DNA of 64,000 nucleotides from NCBI GenBank assembly GCA_011939005.1, contig GCA_011939005.1_4858.1; one strand, written 5' to 3'. Shown in pieces: positions 7,349 to 62,425 of the stretch. The DNA is from a phage. How positions within the stretch are numbered: the stretch's first letter is position 1; each line of letters begins with the position of its first letter. The notes below the pieces were generated by a model. That model worked only from the letters and a program-made list of their open reading frames with translations. It searched no databases and was not told the DNA's origin. The position numbers were made by a program, and so were the translations under genes.

Positions 7349-9848
7349 ATTTGATTATTACCCCTTCGTTATACACCGGTGGAAGCGTTACACCTTCTGG
7401 TTCCACGACACAGTAGGTGGCTTCGTTAAGTTTAGAATGAACTTCCGCTTCATGCGAAACGACCAGCAATTGAGAAAACTCTCCCGACAACGCCAACGAT
7501 TTAATGAAGTTAACTAATCGGTTTTTGTGTTCTTCATCCATGCCTTCAGATGGTTCATCCAATAACAAAGGATAATTTTGTAAACCAAGTGCTTTATACG
7601 CCGTTAAACGAAACATCATGTTGAAAATGATACGCTGTGCTTTTGAACCTTTCTTCACGTCAGGCACCAGTTCTTCATGGTCTTTTAATCGCACTGGGAA
7701 TGTATAATCCAAATCCCCGTCGGTTAGATCGCATGGAATAACCTGCATCGGATATGCCCACACCATTTCGATATACCGATTCATTAAATCCATGATGCGG
7801 GTAATCGCAGCATAAAAGTAACGACGCAATAATCCTTTTTCGGGTGAGACGGCATTGATAATCAATCTGGCATGATGGTGTTCTTTGAGCAACTCAGCTT
7901 GCTCTTTTTCCAGTTCCGCTAAACGTGCAATAGCCCCTTCCATTTGACGAAACCGTTCACGAGCTGAAGTATACGCATCGAGCTTCGCTTCGCGTCGGTT
8001 TAACAACTCGCGAACCACGACGTTGTTAACGGAGATGTTCATTTCCGATACCAGATGTTCGTAGCCCTTTTGGAAACGTTCGATTGCTTCTTTGGTTTGT
8101 TGCAGTTGGGTGGTTTCGCGTTCCAGCTCATTGGCTTGTCTGCGGTATTCTATCAGTCGTCGGTTAGCCCCGTCCAGTTGTGAACGGATATGTTCAATTT
8201 TCTGGCTCAGCGCACCATCAACGTTACCTACTGCAGCAACAGCCTCTTGCCATTCCCGTTCCGCTGTTGCAAGCTTCGCCGATTGACGCAGATACATCAT
8301 GGCCGAATCTAACTCTTCAGTAAAGGCACGTGCAATGGCACCGTAACGATCCCGCGCCGTGGTGAAGATATCCAGCTCCTGCAGTTTACGGAAAAACAAA
8401 CCGATAACGGGATGATTGGAATACGACATGACGATTTCGCGAATCGTACGTAAGCTACGGACGTCCTCTTCAATCTCTTTGCGGTCACGCAAAAGACTAT
8501 CCATTTCGTCTTTCAGCTGTTTTTTCCAACCTTCATTATCGTTGATGGCCTTTTCAATTTCAGGTAACGACTTACGAATCCCAGGACGGAAACGGTGGTT
8601 ACACTGTGGACAATCAACTTCTGCAGTTTCTAAGAAGTGTTGACGGTCGTGGTATAAACCGTGTAGCACATTCTCACAACGTTGCAACTTTTCAGATAGA
8701 CCCGCAGAGGTTAAATCCATACCCTGTAAACGCTTCTCTAACGCTCCCAGGCGCTCTGTTGTCTTTAACTGGTCCAGATGCATGGACAACGGTAAATTCC
8801 AGTTACAGGCGTCGTTTAACGCGTTCTGAATGCTATCCACGTCGATGCGGGTACCTTCAAACAGAGCCGGGAACATCCAGTTCTGTTGGAATGTTGCCAG
8901 TTCCTGTTTTAAGCTGTCGATTGTTTGTTTTAGACCGGTATGGTTGCGCATCAGATACGCTTGACGCGACTCCTCATCCAGTAGCTGTGACAACTCTTTA
9001 TTGTACATGTTGCATTCAGTTTCAGCAGAGGCAGCTTGCTCGCGCCAGGCAACCACACGACTTTGAAACTCGTTAATCAGTTCGTCAGAAGGCAGAACGC
9101 CATAACGTTCCATAATGAGTTTTACAGCCGGTTGCAACGAAGCAATGCGTTTCCGGATACTATCAACCGAAACGGCGTTATCTAAACCGGGTCTCGCTTC
9201 AATGGTGCGGTTTAGTTCCTGAAGCTCAACGTCCAGTTCTTTCAAACGAACTTCCAAACGTGCACGATCTTCTTCATCGTCAACGACGCGCATTTTTGCT
9301 TCGCCGATTTTTCGTCCGGTGTGCTCAATGGCCCCACTTAAACTGGAAGCGAGTTTACGCAGACGACGATAACAACCAACAACGTACGTCAGATCAGATT
9401 CTGACATTAACGTAAACCATTTACGACGAACTTCAGTGGTGGCGTCTGTTAATAAGGTCTCACCATTAATTAACTCTTTGATTTCTTTGGTGATTCCGGT
9501 TAATTGCTCCACCATGGAGTTGTAAACTTTAGCGTTTACTGAATCTACGATGGAAACACCTTTAGTGATGTTGAAGATACTACAAGACAAAGAAGACCCA
9601 CGTCGCAGGACTTCAAACTTAAGACGGTCGTCCCCAACTAACGCGTAGTTAGTGTAGGAACCACCTTCACGGAATTCTGATTTTGCTGGAGCTAAGGGGA
9701 GAAAAACAGATAGGAGGCTTGTTTTACCGCAGCCGTTGCCACCGAGGATGATGGTAACGGTTGACTTAAGGGTGAAATCAAACGTTTCGATTTCATGTAA
9801 CCCCATGCCGGTAAATCCTTTCAAAATGATACGTTCGACCTTGAGCAT
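7338..9848 (-). CDS. SbcC/Rad50-like recombination ATPase (T4 gp46-like architecture)
   Basis: N-terminal Walker A GGNGCGKTS; long coiled-coil middle; CPQC zinc-hook-like motif; C-terminal Walker B LLLDEP. Confidence 0.8.
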   Translation of the reverse strand: MLKVERIILKGFTGMGLHEIETFDFTLKSTVTIILGGNGCGKTSLLSVFLPLAPAKSEFREGGSYTNYALVGDDRLKFEVLRRGSSLSCSIFNITKGVSIVDSVNAKVYNSMVEQLTGITKEIKELINGETLLTDATTEVRRKWFTLMSESDLTYVVGCYRRLRKLASSLSGAIEHTGRKIGEAKMRVVDDEEDRARLEVRLKELDVELQELNRTIEARPGLDNAVSVDSIRKRIASLQPAVKLIMERYGVLPSDELINEFQSRVVAWREQAASAETECNMYNKELSQLLDEESRQAYLMRNHTGLKQTIDSLKQELATFQQNWMFPALFEGTRIDVDSIQNALNDACNWNLPLSMHLDQLKTTERLGALEKRLQGMDLTSAGLSEKLQRCENVLHGLYHDRQHFLETAEVDCPQCNHRFRPGIRKSLPEIEKAINDNEGWKKQLKDEMDSLLRDRKEIEEDVRSLRTIREIVMSYSNHPVIGLFFRKLQELDIFTTARDRYGAIARAFTEELDSAMMYLRQSAKLATAEREWQEAVAAVGNVDGALSQKIEHIRSQLDGANRRLIEYRRQANELERETTQLQQTKEAIERFQKGYEHLVSEMNISVNNVVVRELLNRREAKLDAYTSARERFRQMEGAIARLAELEKEQAELLKEHHHARLIINAVSPEKGLLRRYFYAAITRIMDLMNRYIEMVWAYPMQVIPCDLTDGDLDYTFPVRLKDHEELVPDVKKGSKAQRIIFNMMFRLTAYKALGLQNYPLLLDEPSEGMDEEHKNRLVNFIKSLALSGEFSQLLVVSHEAEVHSKLNEATYCVVEPEGVTLPPVYNEGVIIKYAS

Positions 9849-12085: not shown

Positions 12086-12577
12086 TTATTCTGAATAGTC
12101 GATTGTTTTGATGGTTTCCATACCGTAGTACATAGCGATGGAGGCCAGAGTTTTGGTATCAGGTCGCTGTACAAAACCGGCCCTGAAATCTTTGCTGCAA
12201 ATTTTCTCCACTGATAGTTCATCACGATTAGGGATAAGCCATAACGCGTCACCGTTGTGACGGTCGACTGCACCCCACCAACCACCTGGGCAATCTTTAT
12301 CGCCCGGACGGTGTACGATAGCGACACGTCCGTTGAAGGATATGTCAACTACACGACACTGTTTCTTAAGCAGCTTACGCGCATTGCACCAGAACGGCTT
12401 ATCATTAAGATTGATGGTGCGGGTATATGCTGGAATGCTGCCGTTAATACTGCCCTGGAACCCGCTGAATTCGTCAGCGCGTGCCTTAGAAATCCGTAGC
12501 CCAACAACAACTGCCATCAACAGCACAGTAAAAAGCACCACCTTAATCAGGTGGTGATTAACGTTATTGCATTTCAT
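12086..12577 (-). CDS. exported or membrane-anchored protein (163 aa)
   Basis: ATG at 12577 with GGAGA RBS; N-terminal hydrophobic stretch LIKVVLFTVLLMAVVVGL. Confidence 0.55.
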   Translation of the reverse strand: MKCNNVNHHLIKVVLFTVLLMAVVVGLRISKARADEFSGFQGSINGSIPAYTRTINLNDKPFWCNARKLLKKQCRVVDISFNGRVAIVHRPGDKDCPGGWWGAVDRHNGDALWLIPNRDELSVEKICSKDFRAGFVQRPDTKTLASIAMYYGMETIKTIDYSE

Positions 12578-12965
12578 TTTTGATATCTCCACGAATGAGG
12601 GTGATGCGACCAACGAGCACATCGTTGTGATAAAAACTCACAGCAACCAGATCTGGCAATTCCAACGGCGATACGCTGACCGAAGTGACTTTTGGTTGAT
12701 CGCACGATATGTCGATTAATCGCTGATACATTTTCAGTTTCTTATCAGCGATAACCAGCCCTGTGCAGTTCTTACCATCCGTCAGTTTGTAGATTTGTAA
12801 CTGTTCGACCTCACGCATCAGTTCCGGTTTTTCATTCGGTGCAATGCCATAATCCGAATCAGCTGATGTGTATTCAGTCACGTCTGGCTTATCGAAAGCA
12901 TAAGTTGCTGCGATACCACATGCGGCCAGAACTACTACTGCTTGTAAGAACTTCTTGATAGTCAT
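12564..12965 (-). CDS. putative lipoprotein (133 aa)
   Basis: N-terminus MTIKKFLQAVVVLAACG with lipobox-like LAAC. Confidence 0.55.
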   Translation of the reverse strand: MTIKKFLQAVVVLAACGIAATYAFDKPDVTEYTSADSDYGIAPNEKPELMREVEQLQIYKLTDGKNCTGLVIADKKLKMYQRLIDISCDQPKVTSVSVSPLELPDLVAVSFYHNDVLVGRITLIRGDIKNEMQ

Positions 12966-12990
12966 GTTTTACTCTATAGTCGATTGGTTT

Positions 12991-13019
12991 AAAAAAGAAT
13001 AGGCTACCCGGAGGTAGCC
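12991..13019 (-). terminator. rho-independent terminator
   Basis: Hairpin ggctacc-cgga-ggtagcc followed by T-run on minus strand. Confidence 0.6.
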
Positions 13020-13022
13020 ATT

Positions 13023-13063
13023 GAGTTAATCTCTTAACTCTCACCTAAGTAATATATATCTGA
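13023..13063 (-). promoter_or_regulatory. conserved element copy 1: palindrome gagttaa-N4-ttaactc plus shared 30-mer
   Basis: 30-mer ttaactctcacctaagtaatatatatctga at 13034-13063 is identical to 61077-61106; both carry the same upstream inverted repeat. Confidence 0.4.
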
Positions 13064-13069
13064 GATATT

Positions 13070-13657
13070 TTACAATGTGAACGTTGTGTTAAGAATACGA
13101 AAACCCAATGCTCGCTTAGCGATTTGCATATTTGCAGGCGTGAAGTCCACCAGTTTGATTTGAACGATCGATAAATCGTAAAGCTTGTGAAGCACTTCGA
13201 TTTTGTGTCGCCAATCTGTTTTTTGGTGCAGCTCTATCGTCGTTGGTATCTCGCCTAGTCTCGGCAACTGTGCTCCAAGTAAACGATGATGGACTTTACC
13301 GTTTATAGTTGGGGTGCCTTCCGTGACCATCAGTCGCGCATCGATGTAGTTATTTCGCTTAGCGTACTCCATAAAAGTTTTGACATTTATCTTTTCCTCG
13401 TATAGAATGCTGCGAAAGTATTCGTAAATGATGTGTCCTGCCTCCCTACCGCTTTCCGAGTCCGGAATAACCTTATCGATGAAAATCGCAGAGACCACTT
13501 CGTTCCCACGCGAATGCATTGTAATGACCCTGTCCCCGTGCTGCGCAGAAGTTATTAACCCACTTACATCAAGCCCCACTGGGAACAAGCCGCGACTACG
13601 CATTACGTGCAGGTCTTCTAACCTGTTCTCTTGCAGTCGTAAAATACGTTCTGTCAT
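13070..13657 (-). CDS. hypothetical protein (195 aa)
   Basis: ATG at 13657 with GAGGTG RBS (track start 13666 is GTG). Confidence 0.6.
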   Translation of the reverse strand: MTERILRLQENRLEDLHVMRSRGLFPVGLDVSGLITSAQHGDRVITMHSRGNEVVSAIFIDKVIPDSESGREAGHIIYEYFRSILYEEKINVKTFMEYAKRNNYIDARLMVTEGTPTINGKVHHRLLGAQLPRLGEIPTTIELHQKTDWRHKIEVLHKLYDLSIVQIKLVDFTPANMQIAKRALGFRILNTTFTL

Positions 13658-15478: not shown

Positions 15479-16717
15479 TTACAGTAAACGCAAATCTGCG
15501 ACAAACAACAGTTGACGGCCGTACTTAGTCACTTCTTTCCAGCCATTGTTAACACCCCATTTGATGATAGCGTCGTAATGCCACTGTTTCAGTTCGTTGG
15601 TACCCCACGCATCCCGTACCGCCTTCGCCGACATCAAATAAGCAGGTTCGGCAACGGAGCGCATTTCAGAATCTGGCAGGCGAGAAACAACGGAACTGTT
15701 CACGCGCTGCAGTGTACCGGACACCTGTATCCAGAACGCAGGCGATATTGTATTTGTCGGTCGACAGTCAAATACCCAGGCCGTGTCATTTTCACTGGCC
15801 GGGGTCTTGCGTTTATAGATGCTTAACAGTATTTCTGACTGGATAACTTCGCGGAAAACAGCAAGAAGTGCGATGACTTTCTCATTAACCACCTCATCCT
15901 TTTCGACCTTATAGTAATCTTTAAGGTTTCCGGGCTCTGCTATCGGCATTACTGACCAAACATCGGCGTCTAACATCTCACCGAAATAATGGTTAGCGTT
16001 TTCATCAGATGTCCAGAACATCGTATTACCGTCATTGGCAGTGGTGGCTAGATCACGCAGTGCTTCCTTGGTGTCTTCGTCAATTTCCACAGGTTTGGCT
16101 GCTTCACGCGGTGCGTTTTTCGTGTAGAATCTGCGCTTGCTTACCGCTCTATTCCATACGGTAGTAATTTGGTACGCAGTGAATTCGGGGAACTGCTGCA
16201 CCAACACTTCCGCATCAACATCAAGCCGCTCTGAATTAAAGTTTTGTAATTTCTCATTAAACCCTGTATTCAGCTCTCCGCCAGTCCACCAGTTGCTGTC
16301 GCTTAGTGCAGGCATGTCAGGTGTTAACTCGAACACCGGTTTACCGGTCAGCAGAGTAAGAATGTAGTGCACCCACATTGTGTTACCCTCAGCAATGGCG
16401 CGTCCGATGTTTTGATTACCCGATAGGTAAGCTACACGCGAATCCCCTTCGAATGTCATGGTTAACTCAACCCACGGCGCTAAGTCAGAGACGTGGTGGC
16501 CTAAACGGCACTTTACTTCCCCTTTGTCAAGCAGCCGCTTTTCGACAACGGTTGAGAGCTTTTGTGGCAGGCACGCACAATCCTGCCACGTTACGTCGCT
16601 GTAAGCCATACTCCGAATATTGAACTGCATTCCCAACAGTACAATTGTGTTAGTAATTACTGCATTAAAGAATGCTTCTTTCGGTGTCTGGTAAACTAAT
16701 TCGTATTCGTTATACAT
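15479..16717 (-). CDS. hypothetical protein (412 aa)
   Basis: ATG at 16717 with AAGGAA RBS preferred over track start 16753. Confidence 0.65.
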   Translation of the reverse strand: MYNEYELVYQTPKEAFFNAVITNTIVLLGMQFNIRSMAYSDVTWQDCACLPQKLSTVVEKRLLDKGEVKCRLGHHVSDLAPWVELTMTFEGDSRVAYLSGNQNIGRAIAEGNTMWVHYILTLLTGKPVFELTPDMPALSDSNWWTGGELNTGFNEKLQNFNSERLDVDAEVLVQQFPEFTAYQITTVWNRAVSKRRFYTKNAPREAAKPVEIDEDTKEALRDLATTANDGNTMFWTSDENANHYFGEMLDADVWSVMPIAEPGNLKDYYKVEKDEVVNEKVIALLAVFREVIQSEILLSIYKRKTPASENDTAWVFDCRPTNTISPAFWIQVSGTLQRVNSSVVSRLPDSEMRSVAEPAYLMSAKAVRDAWGTNELKQWHYDAIIKWGVNNGWKEVTKYGRQLLFVADLRLL

Positions 16718-16838
16718 TTGGTATTTCCTTTTAAAGTACACTAAAGTGACCAAAAAATGTTACTAAAGAACAGTTGGTGTTTAAGCGACTGTGGGTTTAT
16801 ACACAATGCTCACTAAGATGACATCTATCTGTAAAAAC

Positions 16839-17156
16839 TTAGTATACGACCAGTACGATGCAGTCATCGATAGCCAGATTCAGTAATGAGTAGTCGTTAC
16901 TTAACCGCTGGTAACGCATCCCTTTTTCAAACCGACTTAGTTGTTCAGTCGGCATGACGTATACCGCGCTTTGCACTACTCCCGTAAACAGTTCGTCGTA
17001 GAACTGGTCTACTTCCCCGACTTTGTAAAAGCGCATTCTTTGATTGTTAGCAAAGACGCTATCTAGCTTCCCGTTACTGGCTTTCTGTAACGCAGTAAAG
17101 GCACTGTCTGCATCATTACGCTCTAATGCACTTTTAATGGTTTGAAATAAAGACAT
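16839..17156 (-). CDS. hypothetical protein (105 aa)
   Basis: ATG with GAGGAG RBS; diverges from the plus-strand structural block. Confidence 0.55.
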   Translation of the reverse strand: MSLFQTIKSALERNDADSAFTALQKASNGKLDSVFANNQRMRFYKVGEVDQFYDELFTGVVQSAVYVMPTEQLSRFEKGMRYQRLSNDYSLLNLAIDDCIVLVVY

Positions 17157-28033: not shown

Positions 28034-31000
28034 ATGCCGAGAGAAGATGCGGCGCAGTTTAACGGTACCCTCAGTACCGCTACTTACCCGAACCGTTATT
28101 CGACGGTCATTCCCGTCGAAGCACCGTTCTATCGCATCGGGTTAACGTTAACCGTTACCGATAAAACAACCGGAACCAAACGCAAGTTAATAGAAGGTCT
28201 TGATTATTTCTTAGGACATTACTTCCAGGAATTAGCCGAGGCTGAGAACGATGCAATATACGGCAGCATAATGCTGCTGAACGCCACAGAGGTAGAATAC
28301 GAGTTATTGTCGGTTGGTCGACAGTATCGCATCCCTGCTTCTGAAATCGGCAAGTATCTGGTTAAGACGGATATGAAAGACCCGCGCAACTGCGATTGGT
28401 CTGAGCTGATGAAATATCCGCCGATTATCTCGCCAATCGACCCGCCAAAAGATCTCGAAGAAGCCATCCTTCGCGATGAAATCGTAAAGGCGTTGGAAGA
28501 TATCCGTCTGGGTATTTTAGAACGTGCCCACGAACTGGATGAGGCTTTTGCGGAAGTTACTGATTTGATTTATCAGAACGGTAAAAAGGTGTTTGATGAC
28601 GAAATGTATCAACACCACCTGATTAAAAATGCACATGGTTACACCTGCGGTGACATTGGCGCTCTCCCGGTACTCGGCAAAGCCGTAGATGCGACTAAGG
28701 CATTCGGACGTACCCTGGCAGAGCTAGTGACGTTAATGTCTACCAGTGGCATCCAACAGAAACACGTTGACATGCTTCTGGATAATACCCTGGGTGATTT
28801 ACTGGGCCGTATGCGTGTTCTGAATAACGACGCGATTACGTTCCAAACAACGTCTGGTCACGTTATCAGCATGAAGGGTGAGAAGTTCATCATCACCTCG
28901 ACAAAACCGCTGGTATTAAAAGCTGACCAGGATAACAACGAACCGGGTATCGCTACGGAGTTCAGTGCTGGTCTGAACACGCTTTGGGTTCACTCGGGTA
29001 AAGCAGGTGACAAGTGGGGCGCTTATGATGCAGGTGTGCTTGCACCTGTGTATAACAGCGTGTATCTCGTTACGCCGGATATGGTTAAGATGTACTTGAC
29101 CTCGGTGAAGATACTTCCAGCAAACGCCTACTTCAAGTCCAGCGACACGTTGAAGATTTACGGCTCTGGTAAAGAAACAAACAAACTTTACATGAATGCG
29201 GAGCTGCCTGCAGCAACCACAACTGTGCAGGGTTTGTTTGCGATTACTAACCTTTCGGCGTCCGCTGCAGCATCCACAGCGATTTCCCAAAAAGCTGTTA
29301 CTGACTTGAAGAACAAACTCGACGGATATGTGGACGACACGTATACAGTCAACGGTAAAGGGTTTGTATTAGATTCAAACGGGCAGATGCATCTGACCTT
29401 AACCGCGGCAGATTTCGGTATTGAGAAGATGAACAATACCGGGCCGCTGGAGAAACCGGTTACTAATGCGTTGCGCACCGTGCTATCTGGCAAAGCGCTT
29501 ACAACGCACACCCACACCATTGCCGATCTCGATAACGTGCCGTACGCATCCACGTCTGTTACAGGTTTGGCTAAACTGTGGGATGCTATTGACACCACAA
29601 CAGATAAGATGGTTACTTCGCGTCAAGGCTTCTTGCTTGAACAGAAGATTGACACGCTGAATGACAAGATTGCTACGTTATTACCGGCGTGGACTGTCGG
29701 CGGATCATCGTACGGCAACAATAACTTCTTGCCTATACCTGTCCAGGGGAACTACGAAGGGTATACCAAAAACCAAACCTGGCAGAAAGGTTTGGCGCGT
29801 TACGAGTCTGGTAAGGTTTACTCGCTCCGTAACGGTTCTAACGGGAACCCACCAGGTGACTGGGCTATCTATTACGCCTATGCTGATGTGTCGCCAAGCA
29901 ATACGCTGGAAAATATGCAGCAGACGTCCGTACGCTATCGACCCGCTGGAATGTCGGCGTATCCTGGGGTGAATCTGGTTGCTATTGTGATTACCGGTAC
30001 CGATGCAATGATCTGCTTAGGCAGTGACGGTGCGTACTACCTGGTCATCTTCGATGGGACGATTGACCATGCAAAACATCATCGTGTTGTTAAAGTGGTG
30101 TTGGGTGATTACAAGAACGGTAATGGTGCGGGCACAGTAACGACAGCACCGTGGGCTCCAAACGCTTCTACAGACGATTTGATTGTTTGTAATGAACGTG
30201 TCTACCTGTTGCGTACGGTGCTTACCTCCGGTAACTATTTCGTGAGTATGCGTAGCATCGCACTCAACGAACTTAATCTGGGTGGCAGCAACACGTTTGT
30301 GGCGGATGCGTTAACAGGCGGGATATTAACGTCGGGTGAAAACGTTTATCTGCGACAGGGACAGAAACGTGCACCTTCCGATGCGCTCCCAGCACCAGTT
30401 ACACAGATCTACGCAGACGCGTTAGCGAAGTGGAACAATGCAACCAACTTTGTACATGGTCCTGAGTGTAATCACGCGATTGGTGTTGATGGGCTGAGCT
30501 TTCGTGTTGGTTTAACTCCAACGGTTTGGTTTGCTTCTACTACAGGGCAAACTATTAACTTTAAACAATGGGTGTCAAGCTTTGTTGTCGACTGTAGCGC
30601 ATTAACGGTAACGCTGGAAGGGGCTGATCGATTCCCTATTGTGGCTGATCTTACCACGGTTCGTTATAACGGTGGTACTGAGATTGGGATTCCAAGCCGG
30701 AAGTGGGGCGAAGGTCAAGCTAATAACCGAACCTTTGCAACATCGCAAGACAAGTATATCGTTTCGCAGGGACATGCAGGCGATCGCGACCTAATGCCAA
30801 TTGTCACGATTACCACGTTAGACGACGGTGTGAGTTGGTACGAGTACCTGTCGTGCGACTACAACTTCACTGCCAGAAGTTTTAGTGCGGTAATGTTAAA
30901 CCAAGGTCGTGGTTCTATCTACGAGCTAGGTATGGCGTATCCACTGACTCTGGGAGCGAATTCCAGACTTATCTGGTTGTCACAGCCACGTTCCCGTTTG

Positions 31001-46965: not shown

Positions 46966-47143
46966 GCTGTTATGGTGAAGTACGCTATCCCTTTAACTCC
47001 AGCTGCTTCGACGTCAGTTTGGATAACCACGCGGCCGTACGCTTTATTAGCGAAATTGAATCAGCGCTGATTCGACCTGCGAGTTCAGGGTTATCCCTTA
47101 CGACTTGTTGGCAGAGCAGTTCCAGTGCGCTATACAATCCCAT
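46966..47143 (-). pseudogene. decayed remnant of a family paralog (N-terminal about 30 codons joined out of frame to C-terminal about 28 codons)
   Basis: Intact RBS and ATG at 47143 encode MGLYSALELLCQQVVRDNPELAGRISADSI (compare MGLYTEPSMELLCQQIVRDNPGLAGKITADSI at 50555); region 46965-47070 is about 80 percent identical to 54051-54155 (3' end of 54050..54877) with a 1-nt deletion. Confidence 0.5.
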
Positions 47144-55778: not shown

Positions 55779-56618
55779 CTAGTTGTTGTAGTGCAACATA
55801 CACTCGCCGATTACTTTCGGGTCGTTCTGAATGCCGGTAATCAGCAATACGTTATCGTACGCTTTATTGGCGGTCGCCAACTCACTCGTTTTGTAGCGGG
55901 TAATTGTGCAGTTCGTCGGATCAAACGACGGTACCCCACGTGCGACCAATGTGGCCATCAGATTGGACGTGTAACCCAAATCAAAGTTACTTCCTACATC
56001 CATTCGCCCGTTCTTAAACGAGGCCATAACCTGCACTTCATCGGTAAAGTCTTCCCCGTACGTCAAGAAGCCCATGTATTTCTTACCAGTGCTTGCTGCT
56101 GCAGGGTGGTTCAAAGCCAACAAGATGTCGTTTACCACGAGGTCTTCGAGGCTATTCTTACCCCGGATAGACATAAAGGTGATGCTGCCAGTGTATTGGA
56201 TACAGCTAGCGTTAATACGCATCGTGTTGTTTACGTTCAGATAAACGTATTGTTCTGGGATATCATCTGCAACCAGGTTTAATCCATAACGACCGTTCAG
56301 GTTCTGCGCAAACGCAGTACGTTTCGACTCCACGTTCAACCAACCGTAGGCATTCGGTGCAGTTACCTGAGGTGTCATGTTCTTAAATAAGTCGTTCAGC
56401 GACAAGCGCTTATAACGGAACGTCTGGGGACCGATATAGCCACGACCTTGACGACCACGAATGATAATCTCAGTATTGGCACCGCTTGCTGTCGGTGTGA
56501 TTGCTTTCGGCGTACCGATGATAGCATTGTCTAAACCCATCGGTAGCACAGCATCCGGGTTTTCGGCATTAATCGCATCGTACAGATATTGTCGCTGAGA
56601 CAGACTATATAAAGCCAT
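55779..56618 (-). CDS. family paralog P5 (279 aa)
   Basis: ATG at 56618 with perfect GAGGAGG RBS (track start 56636 is TTG). Confidence 0.75.
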   Translation of the reverse strand: MALYSLSQRQYLYDAINAENPDAVLPMGLDNAIIGTPKAITPTASGANTEIIIRGRQGRGYIGPQTFRYKRLSLNDLFKNMTPQVTAPNAYGWLNVESKRTAFAQNLNGRYGLNLVADDIPEQYVYLNVNNTMRINASCIQYTGSITFMSIRGKNSLEDLVVNDILLALNHPAAASTGKKYMGFLTYGEDFTDEVQVMASFKNGRMDVGSNFDLGYTSNLMATLVARGVPSFDPTNCTITRYKTSELATANKAYDNVLLITGIQNDPKVIGECMLHYNN

Positions 56619-59329: not shown

Positions 59330-60127
59330 CTAGTTGTTAAAGTGTAAGTTGAGGCTGCCCTGGAAGTTCGTACATTTATCGGTCAGTTGCACTGACACGA
59401 CTTTCGCGAACGCCGTATTTGCTCCCGGTAAGTCTGCAGGTACGCCGTCGAATACGACAGTAGCACCACGCAAGTTATACGGGGATGGGGTATCTTCAGC
59501 CACCCAAATCTCAGGAACACATTTGTTGAGTTCGATTGCTAACGCCGTGTCATCTACTTCGATACCGACCGCTAAGAGGCTCAGGAAACGAGAGATGTGG
59601 CTACAATCGATGTCGCGCGAATAGATATACGCCTGACCCAACTGGATGTCCTGGTGATCCGGGTACAGAAGACCGCTCAACTCTGTATTGGTTATTACTT
59701 CTGCCAGAGGTGTAGCAGGTTTCAGCTCGATGACCGCTTGACTTCGCCACTCGTGGGAAGTTTCAACAGCAACGACTGTGTGAGTCTGTCCATCAATGGG
59801 GTTATCTTCGATATCCTCAGGTAAGATAGACAGATTAAAACGCTCGTTAATCGCCGCGAGTAAGTCGTGCGTGGTATGCACATCTTCATCGCCAAAGGCA
59901 ACATCGCCTGTAAGGTAGTCCTCTAATGGACGACGATGATAGTCCACAATCACTTGCGTACCTTCATCACCGCGCATTTTCGAGGTTAGTACCACCTCCG
60001 AATCACGACCGTCTACTGACACAACCTCCGGCAGTCCGATATCAACATCGTCAAAGGTAAGCGGTGGGCTTATCTTATTCTCTTCGTTGATGAGTTTTAG
60101 CAGATTCTGTTTTGAAGTAAAAGACAT
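59330..60127 (-). CDS. family paralog P1 (265 aa), first gene of array
   Basis: ATG start; palindrome ttaactcgagttaa lies 5 nt upstream on the mRNA. Confidence 0.7.
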   Translation of the reverse strand: MSFTSKQNLLKLINEENKISPPLTFDDVDIGLPEVVSVDGRDSEVVLTSKMRGDEGTQVIVDYHRRPLEDYLTGDVAFGDEDVHTTHDLLAAINERFNLSILPEDIEDNPIDGQTHTVVAVETSHEWRSQAVIELKPATPLAEVITNTELSGLLYPDHQDIQLGQAYIYSRDIDCSHISRFLSLLAVGIEVDDTALAIELNKCVPEIWVAEDTPSPYNLRGATVVFDGVPADLPGANTAFAKVVSVQLTDKCTNFQGSLNLHFNN

Positions 60128-60131
60128 CGCG

Positions 60132-60145
60132 TTAACTCGAGTTAA
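60132..60145 (-). promoter_or_regulatory. perfect 14-bp palindrome TTAACTCGAGTTAA just upstream of the array's first start codon
   Basis: Same half-sites (gagttaa / ttaactc) as the inverted repeat in the conserved 30-mer elements at 13023-13063 and 61067-61106. Confidence 0.35.
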
Positions 60146-60243
60146 GGGATTATTGAGGTCGTAAGATTTTTAGACCTCCTGCCAGCATATTAAAAGCGTA
60201 GAGCGTACCAGAATCCGAACAAGAGCAAACAAAAAGAAAAGGA

Positions 60244-60285
60244 AACAAAAAAAGAAGGGGAGCCGAAGCTCCCTTTTCTTCACGA
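60244..60285 (-). terminator. rho-independent terminator
   Basis: Hairpin gggagc-cgaa-gctccc flanked by A-run and T-run. Confidence 0.55.
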
Positions 60286-60304
60286 CTATATCCTCAATCG
60301 TCGA

Positions 60305-60584: not shown

Positions 60585-61031
60585 TTAGTGTACTTCTTTT
60601 TCTAAACGCAGGCGATGTGTTGCTAAGGCAACCGCGCGGTTTTCGAATTCAAGACTGAATGGGCTGATTTGTGCCATGTATTTCTTTACGACATCGTCAG
60701 AGACAACTTGACGACGATAATCACGAATCATTTCAGCAAAGCTGCTAGTAGGAAGTTCGTCGTATTCGATTTCCATACCACGTCTATTGATGTAGTACGA
60801 AGCAATCATGTCGTTAAACATTACATCGCCGGCTTCACCTAGAGGGAACTCGTCACGTGTGGGTTCCGTAGTCTGGAACGTGGCTTCTTTGGCGTTGGCG
60901 ATAATCTCTTCGAAGTCCTCAGTAGTGAATTCGCTAGGGTCTTGTTTGTTGGCCGCCATCACGATTAGGAAAGAAATCATAATCGGGTTTTTGCTAGCGT
61001 ATTTAGTAAGTTCGTTATTCAGAATGTACAT
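60585..61031 (-). CDS. hypothetical protein (148 aa)
   Basis: ATG with AAGGAG RBS; conserved 30-mer element about 40 nt upstream. Confidence 0.6.
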   Translation of the reverse strand: MYILNNELTKYASKNPIMISFLIVMAANKQDPSEFTTEDFEEIIANAKEATFQTTEPTRDEFPLGEAGDVMFNDMIASYYINRRGMEIEYDELPTSSFAEMIRDYRRQVVSDDVVKKYMAQISPFSLEFENRAVALATHRLRLEKEVH

Positions 61032-61066
61032 GTTAAAACTCCTTAAGATAATGGTCGATTAGATAA

Positions 61067-61106
61067 GAGTTAATTGTTAACTCTCACCTAAGTAATATAT
61101 ATCTGA
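61067..61106 (-). promoter_or_regulatory. conserved element copy 2: palindrome gagttaa-N3-ttaactc plus shared 30-mer
   Basis: 61077-61106 is identical to 13034-13063; lies between a terminator and the RBS of gene 60585..61031. Confidence 0.4.
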
Positions 61107-61120
61107 AAATAATTGTAATC

Positions 61121-61160
61121 GGACTAGGCAAAAAAAAGAAGAAACCCTACTCCCGAAGGA
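61121..61160 (-). terminator. rho-independent terminator
   Basis: Hairpin ccctactcc-cgaa-ggagtaggg with long T-run on minus strand. Confidence 0.65.
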
Positions 61161-61203
61161 GTAGGGTACTGCTTTATTCGCTACCCTTGGGATAAGCGTC
61201 ATC

Positions 61204-61632
61204 CTAGTTGATGTGGAGTAGAGTGTCCTTCAACGCCTTCTGCTTTTCGTACGACTGACGACACAAGGAAGTCAGCGTCGAATACGCCGTGCCGGTACGC
61301 ACCGGTAATTCGCCACCCGCTTCGGTGGGTTCTGTACGAACAAAAGACCCTTCTTCAAACGGCGGCGCTGCGTGTGGGAAGTTCTTTTTCATGTATCGCT
61401 TATACCAGCCGGCCACAACACGGATAACTTTTGGCATCTGAGATCGTCGGTCACGTACTTTCTTCCCGTGCATCTGATTCATCTCGGAAGACATGCATAG
61501 CGAGGTGTACTGACTGAATCCGTCACTGACCCACTTACCGTCCTGGACCAGTAATTTCTTACCAACTGCTACAGCGATTCTCGGAGAGAAAATGACCGCA
61601 CCATCTTTACGTTTCTTAGGCTTAAGCATCAT
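61204..61632 (-). CDS. hypothetical basic protein (142 aa)
   Basis: ATG with AAGGAC RBS; N-terminus MMLKPKKRK resembles that of the upstream gene. Confidence 0.55.
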   Translation of the reverse strand: MMLKPKKRKDGAVIFSPRIAVAVGKKLLVQDGKWVSDGFSQYTSLCMSSEMNQMHGKKVRDRRSQMPKVIRVVAGWYKRYMKKNFPHAAPPFEEGSFVRTEPTEAGGELPVRTGTAYSTLTSLCRQSYEKQKALKDTLLHIN

Positions 61633-62425
61633 TATCGTCCTTGTATAGGGAGTCGTAAGGGCTGTTAGTGTTCATGTTAAATTCTTGTTCTACTTCAGGA
61701 TGTTGTGAAAGGGAATCCAGAAAGATCGGTTGATATCCACCCTCTGTACGTTTCTTTATCATTTCAAGGAACGACTTTCCATCAGGAACATCAGGTGTTG
61801 ATACTAACACCGTGTCAGAGACTGTCGGTAAACGCGCGCAGCCTTCAGTGTTCAGCTGTAGTACCGCGTCTGGTGCGATGTGTCTGATGTTAGGAAACTT
61901 CAACGCGATCTCTTCCATCTTCGCTTTCAATGCATCACCGTTTAGCAGCGGTACAGTCGGCGTCATATAAGCGAACTCAACATCTCGATCGGCCACATAA
62001 TCGCGTAAGTGTTTTCGGGCTGCTACTGTAGCAGAAACTTGCTCTTTATTAGCGTTTATGCCGATGTCATTAAAGCGTTTTAGTTTGTCTAAGAAAACGC
62101 TAATGTTTTCCTTCGGCATAGGGCGTGGGAACTTACGCAGAAAATAAAGTTGTTCGCGGCCAGGCACCCAGCTGAGTACCCAGCACGCTTTTAGTGTACG
62201 GAAGATATCACGATAGGGTTTCTTCTCTTGAAAGAAATCCCCTTTTAACTGGCAACGGTCTTCAACCATTGCCTGGAGTTGGGTGGCTACGTTGGCCATT
62301 GCCGACCAGGTGATAAGACGACTACGGTGTTTACCCACGTAGAGACGTCCACCTGTAACACGATGGGACTGTGGATGTACTATTTTGACAAACTGTAATC
62401 TTTTCTGTTTGCGTGGCTTTAACAT
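61622..62425 (-). CDS. hypothetical protein (267 aa)
   Basis: ATG at 62425 with perfect AAGGAG RBS preferred over track start 62494. Confidence 0.6.
   Translation of the reverse strand: MLKPRKQKRLQFVKIVHPQSHRVTGGRLYVGKHRSRLITWSAMANVATQLQAMVEDRCQLKGDFFQEKKPYRDIFRTLKACWVLSWVPGREQLYFLRKFPRPMPKENISVFLDKLKRFNDIGINANKEQVSATVAARKHLRDYVADRDVEFAYMTPTVPLLNGDALKAKMEEIALKFPNIRHIAPDAVLQLNTEGCARLPTVSDTVLVSTPDVPDGKSFLEMIKKRTEGGYQPIFLDSLSQHPEVEQEFNMNTNSPYDSLYKDDNDA

What the first reader, a model, noticed from the sequence alone, without database searches (positions are those of the whole stretch)
13023..13063. Exact 30-bp element with adjacent inverted repeat present at two distant sites (also 61067..61106), plus a related palindrome at 60132..60145
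The 30-mer ttaactctcacctaagtaatatatatctga is identical at 13034-13063 and 61077-61106, each preceded by the inverted repeat gagttaa-N3/4-ttaactc, and the same half-sites form a perfect palindrome TTAACTCGAGTTAA 5 nt upstream of the first start codon of the paralog array. All three are in minus-strand leaders or intergenic regions. The element could be a phage-specific promoter with an operator for a dimeric regulator, or an RNA structural or processing signal.
Basis: seen in the sequence. Interest (0 to 1): 0.55.

Follow-up and report, generated by a model that had tools for sequence, protein, structure and literature searches.

The report
Jumbo-phage early promoters with 5' hairpins
The repeated 30-mer is the core of an early promoter of an SPN3US-like giant Salmonella phage, most likely read by the RNA polymerase carried in the virion. 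The adjacent inverted repeat is a stem-loop at the very start of the transcript, so this is a real but largely expected regulatory element.

Summary
The 30-mer is identical at 13034-13063 and 61077-61106, each next to gagttaa-N3/4-ttaactc, and TTAACTCGAGTTAA lies at 60132-60145.

The window is 96-98% identical to jumbo phage SPN3US. Read on the minus strand, the element is TCAGATATATATTAC-TTAGGT-GAG. It carries the TATATTAC octamer found upstream of phiKZ genes, and it matches the mapped AR9 early consensus AAATATATATTAT-N6-G(+1).

- **Family.** It belongs to a family of about 26 intergenic, gene-oriented sites in SPN3US, including sites in front of RNA polymerase genes that I take, from memory, to be the non-virion set. 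A subclass of 6-7 per genome, with 42 distinct copies in public viral contigs, includes both window copies.
- **Inverted repeat.** In this subclass it starts at the predicted +1. Its sequence differs between copies with compensatory changes, and G·U pairs occur on the sense strand only. It is therefore an RNA 5'-terminal stem-loop, not an operator.
- **Third palindrome.** It is unrelated. Only its right half is conserved, as part of a late-gene leader.
- **Site 1.** It is unusual in having an intrinsic terminator right after the hairpin, which predicts an RNA of about 55 nt.

No transcription start is mapped in this clade, so start sites and timing are inferred. This is a known kind of element and the interest is modest.

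The parts
13040..13077 (-). Site 1 early promoter (38-nt family match, about -35 to +3). It contains the reported 30-mer (13063-13034 read on the minus strand) with the core GATATATATTAC-TTAGGT-GAG.
   Evidence: PWM score 38.8, with essentially no comparable hits in 20 shuffles. Same core as the AR9 early consensus and the phiKZ TATATTAC sites.
13042..13042 (-). Predicted transcription start of site 1 (the G seven bases after ...ATTAC).
   Evidence: Inferred from AR9 AAATATATATTAT-(6N)-G(+1). The hairpin begins at this base or two bases later in all 33 folded copies. Not mapped experimentally.
13023..13040 (-). Site 1 5'-terminal stem-loop: GAGTTAA / GAGA loop / TTAACTC.
   Evidence: -6.9 kcal/mol.
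12990..13019 (-). Intrinsic terminator (GGCTACC-TCCG-GGTAGCC plus a T-run) lying between the site 1 hairpin and the next gene.
   Evidence: The arrangement is conserved in STsAS and pEa_SNUABM_29. Among 42 subclass copies only this locus has a terminator downstream of the promoter.
12976..12985 (-). AATCGACTAT leader box of site 1.
12564..12965 (-). Gene downstream of site 1 (133 aa, phrog_9424, unknown function).
61083..61120 (-). Site 2 early promoter (38-nt family match). It contains the second copy of the 30-mer (61106-61077 read on the minus strand).
   Evidence: PWM score 37.8. The stretch -27..+4 is invariant in orthologous sites of five other phages while the flanks diverge.
61085..61085 (-). 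Predicted transcription start of site 2.
   Evidence: Same inference as for site 1.
61065..61085 (-). Site 2 5'-terminal stem-loop: GAGAGTTAA / CAA / TTAACTCTT.
   Evidence: -7.5 kcal/mol, starts at +1.
61144..61167 (-). Intrinsic terminator upstream of site 2, ending the preceding transcription unit.
   Evidence: 21 of 42 subclass copies have such a terminator 30-77 nt upstream.
61050..61061 (-). TAATCGACCATT leader box of site 2, 19 nt before the ATG.
60585..61031 (-). Gene downstream of site 2 (148 aa, phrog_8484, unknown function). It is not a paralog of the site 1 gene.
16809..16846 (-). Another family member in the window, general class (ACAGATAGATGTCATCTTAGTGAG).
   Evidence: PWM score 34.9.
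60132..60145 (.). Palindrome TTAACTCGAGTTAA. It is not part of the promoter family. It lies in the leader of the first gene of the virion paralog array, 4 nt before the ATG.
   Evidence: Only the right half, CGAGTTAACGCGATG, is conserved in Erwinia phage relatives.
60178..60193 (-). Conserved block TTAATATGCTGGCAGG upstream of the paralog array. It contains TATG, the core of phiKZ late promoters.
   Evidence: conserved in all seven relatives fetched, of four genera. for the T-3ATG+1 late motif. The block is unique in the genome.

Best explanation
The window comes from an SPN3US-like (Seoulvirus) jumbo phage. Read on the minus strand, the repeated 30-mer is the core of an early promoter. It is most likely recognised by the multisubunit RNA polymerase that the virion injects, with transcription starting at the G of GTGAG (13042 and 61085, minus strand). 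The inverted repeat is transcribed as the first ~20 nt and folds into a 5'-terminal stem-loop. The leader continues with a TAATCGACYATTA box, a Shine-Dalgarno sequence and the ATG.

The two copies belong to a subclass of 6-7 such cassettes per genome that drive unrelated small genes of unknown function. The stem-loop most likely protects these first transcripts from 5'-end-dependent decay.

Shown: the motif family, its placement relative to genes, and selection for the stem as a structure. Inferred: the start site, the polymerase, the early timing and the stabilising role. The palindrome at 60132-60145 is a separate element in a late-gene leader.
For: Identity of the phage: 96-98% to SPN3US and about 30 relatives. 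SPN3US carries seven RNA polymerase beta-type genes.

Motif: the core ATATATATTAC-N6-G matches the mapped AR9 early consensus AAATATATATTAT-(6N)-G. It fits the general description of a ~10-nt AT-rich element centred near -10. The octamer TATATTAC occurs 7 times in the first 50 kb of phiKZ, always upstream of a gene, including PHIKZ054, which has a mapped early start.

Family: 26 plus-strand sites in SPN3US, all pointing at a downstream gene. They include sites 26 and 42 nt before the gp232/231 and gp244/243 RNA polymerase gene blocks. None of the strong sites sits directly upstream of an annotated virion structural gene. Shuffled sequence gives almost no hits. No sigma-70-type promoter is found on the minus strand at either copy.

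Conservation: both sites are present in 34 related genomes. At orthologous site 2 loci in four genera, -27..+4 is invariant while the hairpin and leader diverge.

Stem-loop: 34 of 43 distinct copies fold at -3 kcal/mol or better within +1..+26, with a mean of -5.6 against -1.7 for shuffles. The stem starts at +1 in 29 of the 33 folded copies (34 of the 43 fold; the tally lists 33) and at +2 or +3 in the other four. On the model alignment 95% of cells are paired, against 76% for shuffles and 32-61% for slid partners. There are 49 double-sided changes against 17 expected, and 5 of 8 pairs show compensatory change. Sense-strand G·U pairs number 45, against 4 A·C pairs.
Against: No transcription start, timing or polymerase dependence has been measured for SPN3US or any close relative in the literature I could search, so +1 is set by analogy only.

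The covariation alignment was fitted to the model structure and leans towards it. Nine of 43 copies do not form a clear hairpin.

The general class of the same promoter family mostly lacks the hairpin, and seven phiKZ early leaders lack a strong one. The hairpin is therefore not needed for initiation, and its benefit is unproven.

At site 1 a strong terminator follows the hairpin, so this promoter may not express the downstream gene efficiently.
Confidence: 0.78

Rival explanations
1. The inverted repeat is a DNA operator bound by a dimeric phage regulator that switches these promoters off or on.
For: The two window copies share the same half-sites. One subclass promoter in SPN3US drives a gene annotated as an HTH DNA-binding protein.
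Against: Across 42 distinct copies the stem sequence is not conserved, only its pairing. Frequent G·U pairs on the sense strand would be C·A mismatches in a symmetric DNA site. Orthologous site 2 loci have different stems. The third site has its half-sites in the opposite order, and only one half is conserved.
Confidence: 0.05
2. The hairpin acts at the DNA level as part of promoter recognition, as in phage N4, where the virion polymerase reads an extruded hairpin. Transcription would then start downstream of the hairpin.
For: The stem of 5-9 bp and loop of 3-5 nt resemble N4 promoter hairpins in size. No start site is mapped, so a downstream start cannot be excluded.
Against: The invariant sequence lies upstream of the hairpin, not in it. 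Most family members, including those before the RNA polymerase genes taken here to be the non-virion set, have no hairpin. SPN3US-type polymerases are multisubunit beta/beta' enzymes, not the single-subunit N4 type. In AR9 the start is 7 nt after the same AT-rich core.
Confidence: 0.05
3. Site 1 is a small-RNA or attenuator unit. The promoter, the 5' hairpin and the terminator together make an RNA of about 55 nt with two hairpins, and expression of the downstream gene depends on read-through.
For: A strong terminator starts 3 nt after the hairpin. The predicted 55-nt RNA folds at -21 kcal/mol, z = -5.4. The promoter-hairpin-terminator unit is conserved in STsAS and pEa_SNUABM_29 although the downstream sequence differs. 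It is unique among 42 subclass copies. RNAs made by premature termination in the 5' UTR are reported for jumbo phage 201phi2-1.
Against: The terminator may simply end the upstream operon, whose stop codon overlaps the promoter. The predicted RNA has almost no single-stranded region for base pairing. Nothing is known about how the virion polymerase responds to intrinsic terminators.
Confidence: 0.3
4. The element is a host sigma-70 promoter.
For: It is AT-rich with TATATT and TTGTAA/TTACAA hexamers.
Against: The hexamers are 13 nt apart. The consensus scan finds no sigma-70-type site on the minus strand at either copy. The conserved positions extend well beyond two hexamers. Related jumbo phages transcribe independently of the host polymerase.
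Confidence: 0.04
5. The 5' hairpin is a promoter-proximal intrinsic terminator or attenuator.
For: Several copies read ...CTTTTA after the stem.
Against: Once the U residues that pair with the leading GAG are counted as stem, only 4 of 33 copies have three or more T in the four bases after the stem. The stems are AT-rich and weak (-6 to -8 kcal/mol).
Confidence: 0.05

Closest known systems
Early (virion RNA polymerase) promoters of phiKZ-like and AR9-like jumbo phages
   Same: An AT-rich conserved core near -10 with an upstream T/A-rich stretch. The octamer TATATTAC matches phiKZ, and 10 of 11 core bases plus the N6-G spacing match AR9. There are many copies per genome in front of non-structural genes, including RNA polymerase genes that I take, from memory, to be the non-virion set.
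   Different: There is no mapped start or timing for this clade. The flanks are clade-specific (TCAGATA... and ...YTAGGTGAG). The family consensus is quasi-palindromic. A subclass carries a 5'-terminal stem-loop and a leader box, which the seven phiKZ leaders examined lack.
5'-terminal stabilising stem-loops of bacterial and phage mRNAs (for example the ompA leader; from my own knowledge)
   Same: The hairpin begins at the first or third transcribed base, and the structure is conserved rather than the sequence.
   Different: A stabilising effect has not been tested here. The stems are short and AT-rich.
PeSL (promoter-early stem-loop) cassettes of T4-type phages (PMC2839356)
   Same: Short repeated regulatory cassettes combining an early promoter with a stem-loop, placed before small genes of unknown function, often with a terminator at the cassette. 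Gene-content differences lie next to site 2.
   Different: PeSL promoters are sigma-70 type, and their stem-loop is a GC-rich terminator for upstream transcription. Here the promoter is phage-specific and the stem-loop is in the transcript. Recombination between copies has not been shown.
Phage N4 virion-polymerase hairpin promoters
   Same: An injected polymerase and small hairpins at early promoters.
   Different: The polymerase family is different. Here the hairpin is downstream of the conserved core, varies in sequence and is absent from most family members.

Membership tests
Jumbo-phage virion-RNA-polymerase early promoter | The genome encodes virion and non-virion multisubunit RNA polymerases. 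| tested here: met
   The window is 96-98% identical to SPN3US, whose record lists seven RNA polymerase beta-type genes. The review confirms the SPN3US virion subunit gp244. None of these genes lies inside the window itself.
Jumbo-phage virion-RNA-polymerase early promoter | A highly conserved AT-rich element of about 10 nt centred near -10, similar to mapped early promoters. | tested here: met
   ATATATATTAC-N6-G against AR9 AAATATATATTAT-N6-G. TATATTAC as at the phiKZ gene-upstream sites. -27..+4 invariant across genera.
Jumbo-phage virion-RNA-polymerase early promoter | Many copies, intergenic, oriented towards early genes including the non-virion polymerase genes. | tested here: met
   26 plus-strand sites in SPN3US. 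They include sites before gp232/231 and gp244/243, and none lies directly before an annotated virion gene. Which polymerase genes are the non-virion set rests on my memory of Thomas et al. 2016.
Jumbo-phage virion-RNA-polymerase early promoter | Primary 5' ends at the site within minutes of infection, independent of protein synthesis and of host polymerase. | not testable with these tools
   No transcript data for SPN3US-like phages in the searchable literature.
Operator for a dimeric DNA-binding regulator | The same half-site sequence is conserved at all regulated promoters. | tested here: not met
   The stems differ between copies with compensatory changes, and G·U pairs occur on the sense strand only.
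RNA 5'-terminal stem-loop | A stem-loop starting within 0-2 nt of the 5' end, maintained by covariation. | tested here: met
   The stem starts at +1 in 29 of 33 folded copies and at +2 or +3 in the other four. 95% of cells are paired, with 5 of 8 pairs showing changes on both sides. This holds only if the inferred +1 is right.
RNA 5'-terminal stem-loop | It prolongs mRNA half-life. | not testable with these tools
   Needs decay measurements with stem-disrupting and compensatory mutants.
N4-type hairpin promoter | The hairpin lies upstream of +1 and is itself the conserved recognition element. The polymerase is a single-subunit virion enzyme. | tested here: not met
   The conserved core is upstream of a variable hairpin. 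Most family members have no hairpin. The polymerases are multisubunit.
PeSL cassettes of T4-type phages | A sigma-70 consensus early promoter combined with a terminator stem-loop. | tested here: not met
   No sigma-70-type site on the relevant strand. An upstream terminator is present in 21 of 42 copies. This is a resemblance in organisation only.
Rfam RNA families | A match above the gathering score. | tested here: not met
   No match anywhere in the window.

The most novel reading that the evidence does not exclude
The TATATTAC-YTAGGT-GAG subclass may be a modular early-expression cassette: promoter, 5' stem-loop, TAATCGACYATTA box and Shine-Dalgarno sequence. It would have spread in front of unrelated genes across several genera of enterobacterial nucleus-forming jumbo phages. 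The stem-loop and box would give the very first transcripts special handling (stability, translation control, or exit from the early infection vesicle). Site 1 would additionally produce a conserved early RNA of about 55 nt.
Probability: 0.2. Interest if true: 0.6.

Novelty: new member of a known kind. Interest (0 to 1): 0.35.

Why it matters
It gives a concrete, testable map of early transcription units for SPN3US-like phages, a genetic model for giant phages that has no published start-site map. That map includes predicted start sites, about 26 promoters per genome and two promoter subclasses.

The virion polymerase of these phages has no known sigma-like factor. A near-invariant 31-nt quasi-palindromic target, conserved across genera, is a useful substrate for biochemical and structural work.

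The 5' stem-loop and leader-box cassette is a candidate post-transcriptional layer on the earliest phage messages. It could also serve as a compact expression part for engineering these phages.

Tried and rejected
- Exact TATATTAC search in the window: only the two known copies, not above chance by itself. The family became visible only genome-wide.
- Rfam scan of the whole window: nothing.
- Pfam on five neighbouring proteins: nothing. PHROGs on four: only families of unknown function. The two downstream genes are not paralogs, so the repeat is not a by-product of gene duplication.
- Literature searches for the sequence motifs and for SPN3US transcript data: nothing relevant. Ceyssens 2014 and Weintraub 2019 are not held. 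Lavysh 2016, which may already show an SPN3US early motif, could not be checked.
- Hairpin as attenuator: rejected because the T-run is missing.
- TTAATATGCTGGCAGG as a repeated late-promoter motif: rejected, since it is unique in the genome.
- Palindrome as a variant of the AATCGAC box: considered because of AACTCGACTAT at another promoter. It was not pursued, because the distance to the ATG differs and only the right half is conserved.

Full report
**Observation.** The 30-mer is identical at 13034-13063 and 61077-61106, with no other match at up to three mismatches and none in shuffles. GAGTTAA-N4-TTAACTC lies at 13023-13040 and GAGTTAA-N3-TTAACTC at 61067-61083, which is two matches against 0.01 expected. 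TTAACTCGAGTTAA is at 60132-60145, 4 nt rather than 5 before the ATG at 60127. All three sites are upstream of minus-strand ORFs.

**Source.** The window is 96-98% identical to Salmonella jumbo phage SPN3US and about 30 relatives in Seoulvirus, and is related to Erwinia jumbo phages. It runs opposite to the SPN3US record and covers roughly 111.5-178.7 kb of it. I fetched the whole SPN3US genome. Phages of this group carry two multisubunit RNA polymerases. One is packed in the virion and transcribes early genes. The other is made after infection.

**What the 30-mer is.**
- On the minus strand it reads TCAGATATATATTAC-TTAGGT-GAGAGTTAA.
- The mapped AR9 early consensus is AAATATATATTAT-(6N)-G, with G as the start. 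The general rule for these phages is a ~10-nt AT-rich conserved element centred near -10.
- The octamer TATATTAC occurs seven times in the first 50 kb of phiKZ, every time upstream of a gene. One of these is PHIKZ054, for which an early start has been mapped.
- A genome-wide search of SPN3US found eight close relatives of the 30-mer, all plus-strand and intergenic.
- An iterated weight matrix found 26 plus-strand sites with consensus aaaTtTCAGATAGATATTATCTatgTGAa. Shuffled sequence gives almost none.
- Every site points at a downstream gene. Two sites lie 26 and 42 nt before RNA polymerase gene blocks that, by my recollection of Thomas et al. 2016, are the non-virion set. No strong site directly precedes an annotated virion gene.
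- No sigma-70-type promoter is found on the relevant strand at either copy.
- The window has five family members on the minus strand: 13077-13040, 61120-61083, 16846-16809 and two weak ones.

**Two classes.** The window copies belong to a subclass, GATATATATTACYTAGGT|GAG, with 6-7 copies per genome. Its leaders are 45-64 nt long. The general class, GATAGATATTATCT, has 26-42-nt leaders and usually no hairpin. An exact-pattern scan of public viral contigs returned 42 distinct subclass copies. They come from SPN3US, from Erwinia phages of several genera and from metagenomic contigs.

**The inverted repeat.**
- Taking +1 from the AR9 spacing, 34 of 43 distinct copies fold into a hairpin within +1..+26. 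The mean is -5.6 kcal/mol against -1.7 for dinucleotide shuffles.
- The stem starts at +1 in 29 of the 33 folded copies tallied and at +2 or +3 in the other four.
- The stem sequences differ widely between copies.
- On a covariance-model alignment, 95% of cells pair, against 76% in shuffles and 32-61% with slid partners. There are 49 double-sided changes against 17 expected, and five of eight pairs show compensatory change. This alignment is fitted to the model, so it leans towards the structure.
- G·U pairs are frequent on the sense strand (45), while A·C pairs, which would be G·U on the other strand, are rare (4).
- At orthologous site 2 loci in five other phages, positions -27..+4 are invariant while the hairpin sequence changes.
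- Together these results argue for an RNA structure at the very 5' end. They argue against a sequence-specific DNA operator.
- The T-run expected of an attenuator is absent.
- Seven phiKZ early leaders lack a comparable hairpin.

**Likely mechanism.** The injected polymerase initiates at 13042 and 61085 (minus strand). The transcript begins with a stem-loop that, by analogy with known 5'-terminal stem-loops, would slow 5'-end-dependent decay of the first phage messages. The start site, the polymerase and the stabilising role are all inferences. Half of the subclass copies, including site 2, have a strong terminator 30-77 nt upstream, so they open new transcription units.

**Site 1 is exceptional.**
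- The stop codon of the upstream gene overlaps the promoter.
- A strong terminator follows the hairpin by 3 nt, which predicts a two-hairpin RNA of about 55 nt (-21 kcal/mol, z = -5.4) unless there is read-through.
- This unit is conserved in STsAS and pEa_SNUABM_29 although the downstream sequence differs.
- RNAs made by premature termination in the 5' UTR are reported in jumbo phage 201phi2-1.

**The third site.**
- The palindrome carries no promoter motif and has the half-sites in the opposite order.
- In seven relatives from four genera the leader upstream of the first paralog-array gene is conserved as TTAATATGCTGGCAGGGGG, then a variable hairpin, then CGAGTTAACGCG-ATG. The left half of the palindrome is not conserved.
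- The TATG in the first block matches the core of phiKZ late promoters. The block is unique in the genome.
- The window contains five perfect 14-nt palindromes, about the chance number.
- I therefore treat the shared 7-mer as coincidence or a weak compositional preference.

**Comparison and novelty.** The promoter is a new member of a known kind, the early promoters of RNA-polymerase-encoding jumbo phages. The review states that such a motif can be found computationally in every phage of this type, so the SPN3US motif may already be in print. I could not check that paper. The 5' stem-loop and leader-box subclass is not mentioned in any paper I could search. In organisation it resembles the PeSL cassettes of T4-type phages, but the promoter type and the role of the stem-loop differ.

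**Verdict.** This is a real, functional-looking regulatory element, largely explained by established knowledge. The operator idea is rejected and the third site is unrelated. Interest is modest.

Noticed in passing
window 12976-12985 and 61050-61061 (minus strand); SPN3US leaders at 56363, 57177, 65485, 94310, 114059, 166685, 167622, 223349 and 224226: The box TAATCGACYATTA recurs in about 12 leaders. In most it ends 18-21 nt before the ATG (range 10-31). It occurs with or without an early promoter and is enriched 5-9 fold in upstream regions. The near-fixed spacing to the start codon suggests a role in translation, or a second promoter.
   Followed up: partly
SPN3US (L003) 7374-7424, 15598-15648 and 28953-29003; L001 41586-41636: The early-promoter core is quasi-palindromic and scores on both strands. 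Four isolated minus-strand genes in SPN3US have the reverse-oriented motif 21-118 nt upstream, which suggests bidirectional early promoters. At the two window sites the reverse orientation faces no gene.
   Followed up: partly
window 12990-13042 (minus strand): The promoter, 5' hairpin and intrinsic terminator lie in direct succession, predicting an RNA of about 55 nt. The unit is conserved in STsAS and pEa_SNUABM_29 although the downstream sequence differs.
   Followed up: partly
window 60128-60200 (minus strand): The leader of the first virion paralog-array gene is conserved across Seoul-, Machina-, Wellington- and Erskinevirus: TTAATATGCTGGCAGGGGG, a variable hairpin, then CGAGTTAACGCG-ATG. 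It has no clear Shine-Dalgarno sequence. TATG matches the phiKZ late-promoter core.
   Followed up: partly
window 60279-60287: The homolog of SPN3US gp129 (114807-115238) is absent from the window. The junction falls on a 9-bp direct repeat, AGTCGTGAA, consistent with a deletion between short repeats.
   Followed up: partly
window 61196-61988 and about 47012-47054: About 790 nt present in the window but not in SPN3US begins roughly 30 nt upstream of the site 2 terminator. About 3.3 kb of the virion paralog array (SPN3US 128.4-131.7 kb) is missing from the window. Gene content is therefore plastic next to the cassette and within the array.
   Followed up: no
window 61144-61167: A 10-bp GC-rich hairpin scores as a terminator on both strands, so it could also stop any antisense transcript fired from the palindromic site 2 promoter.
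   Followed up: no
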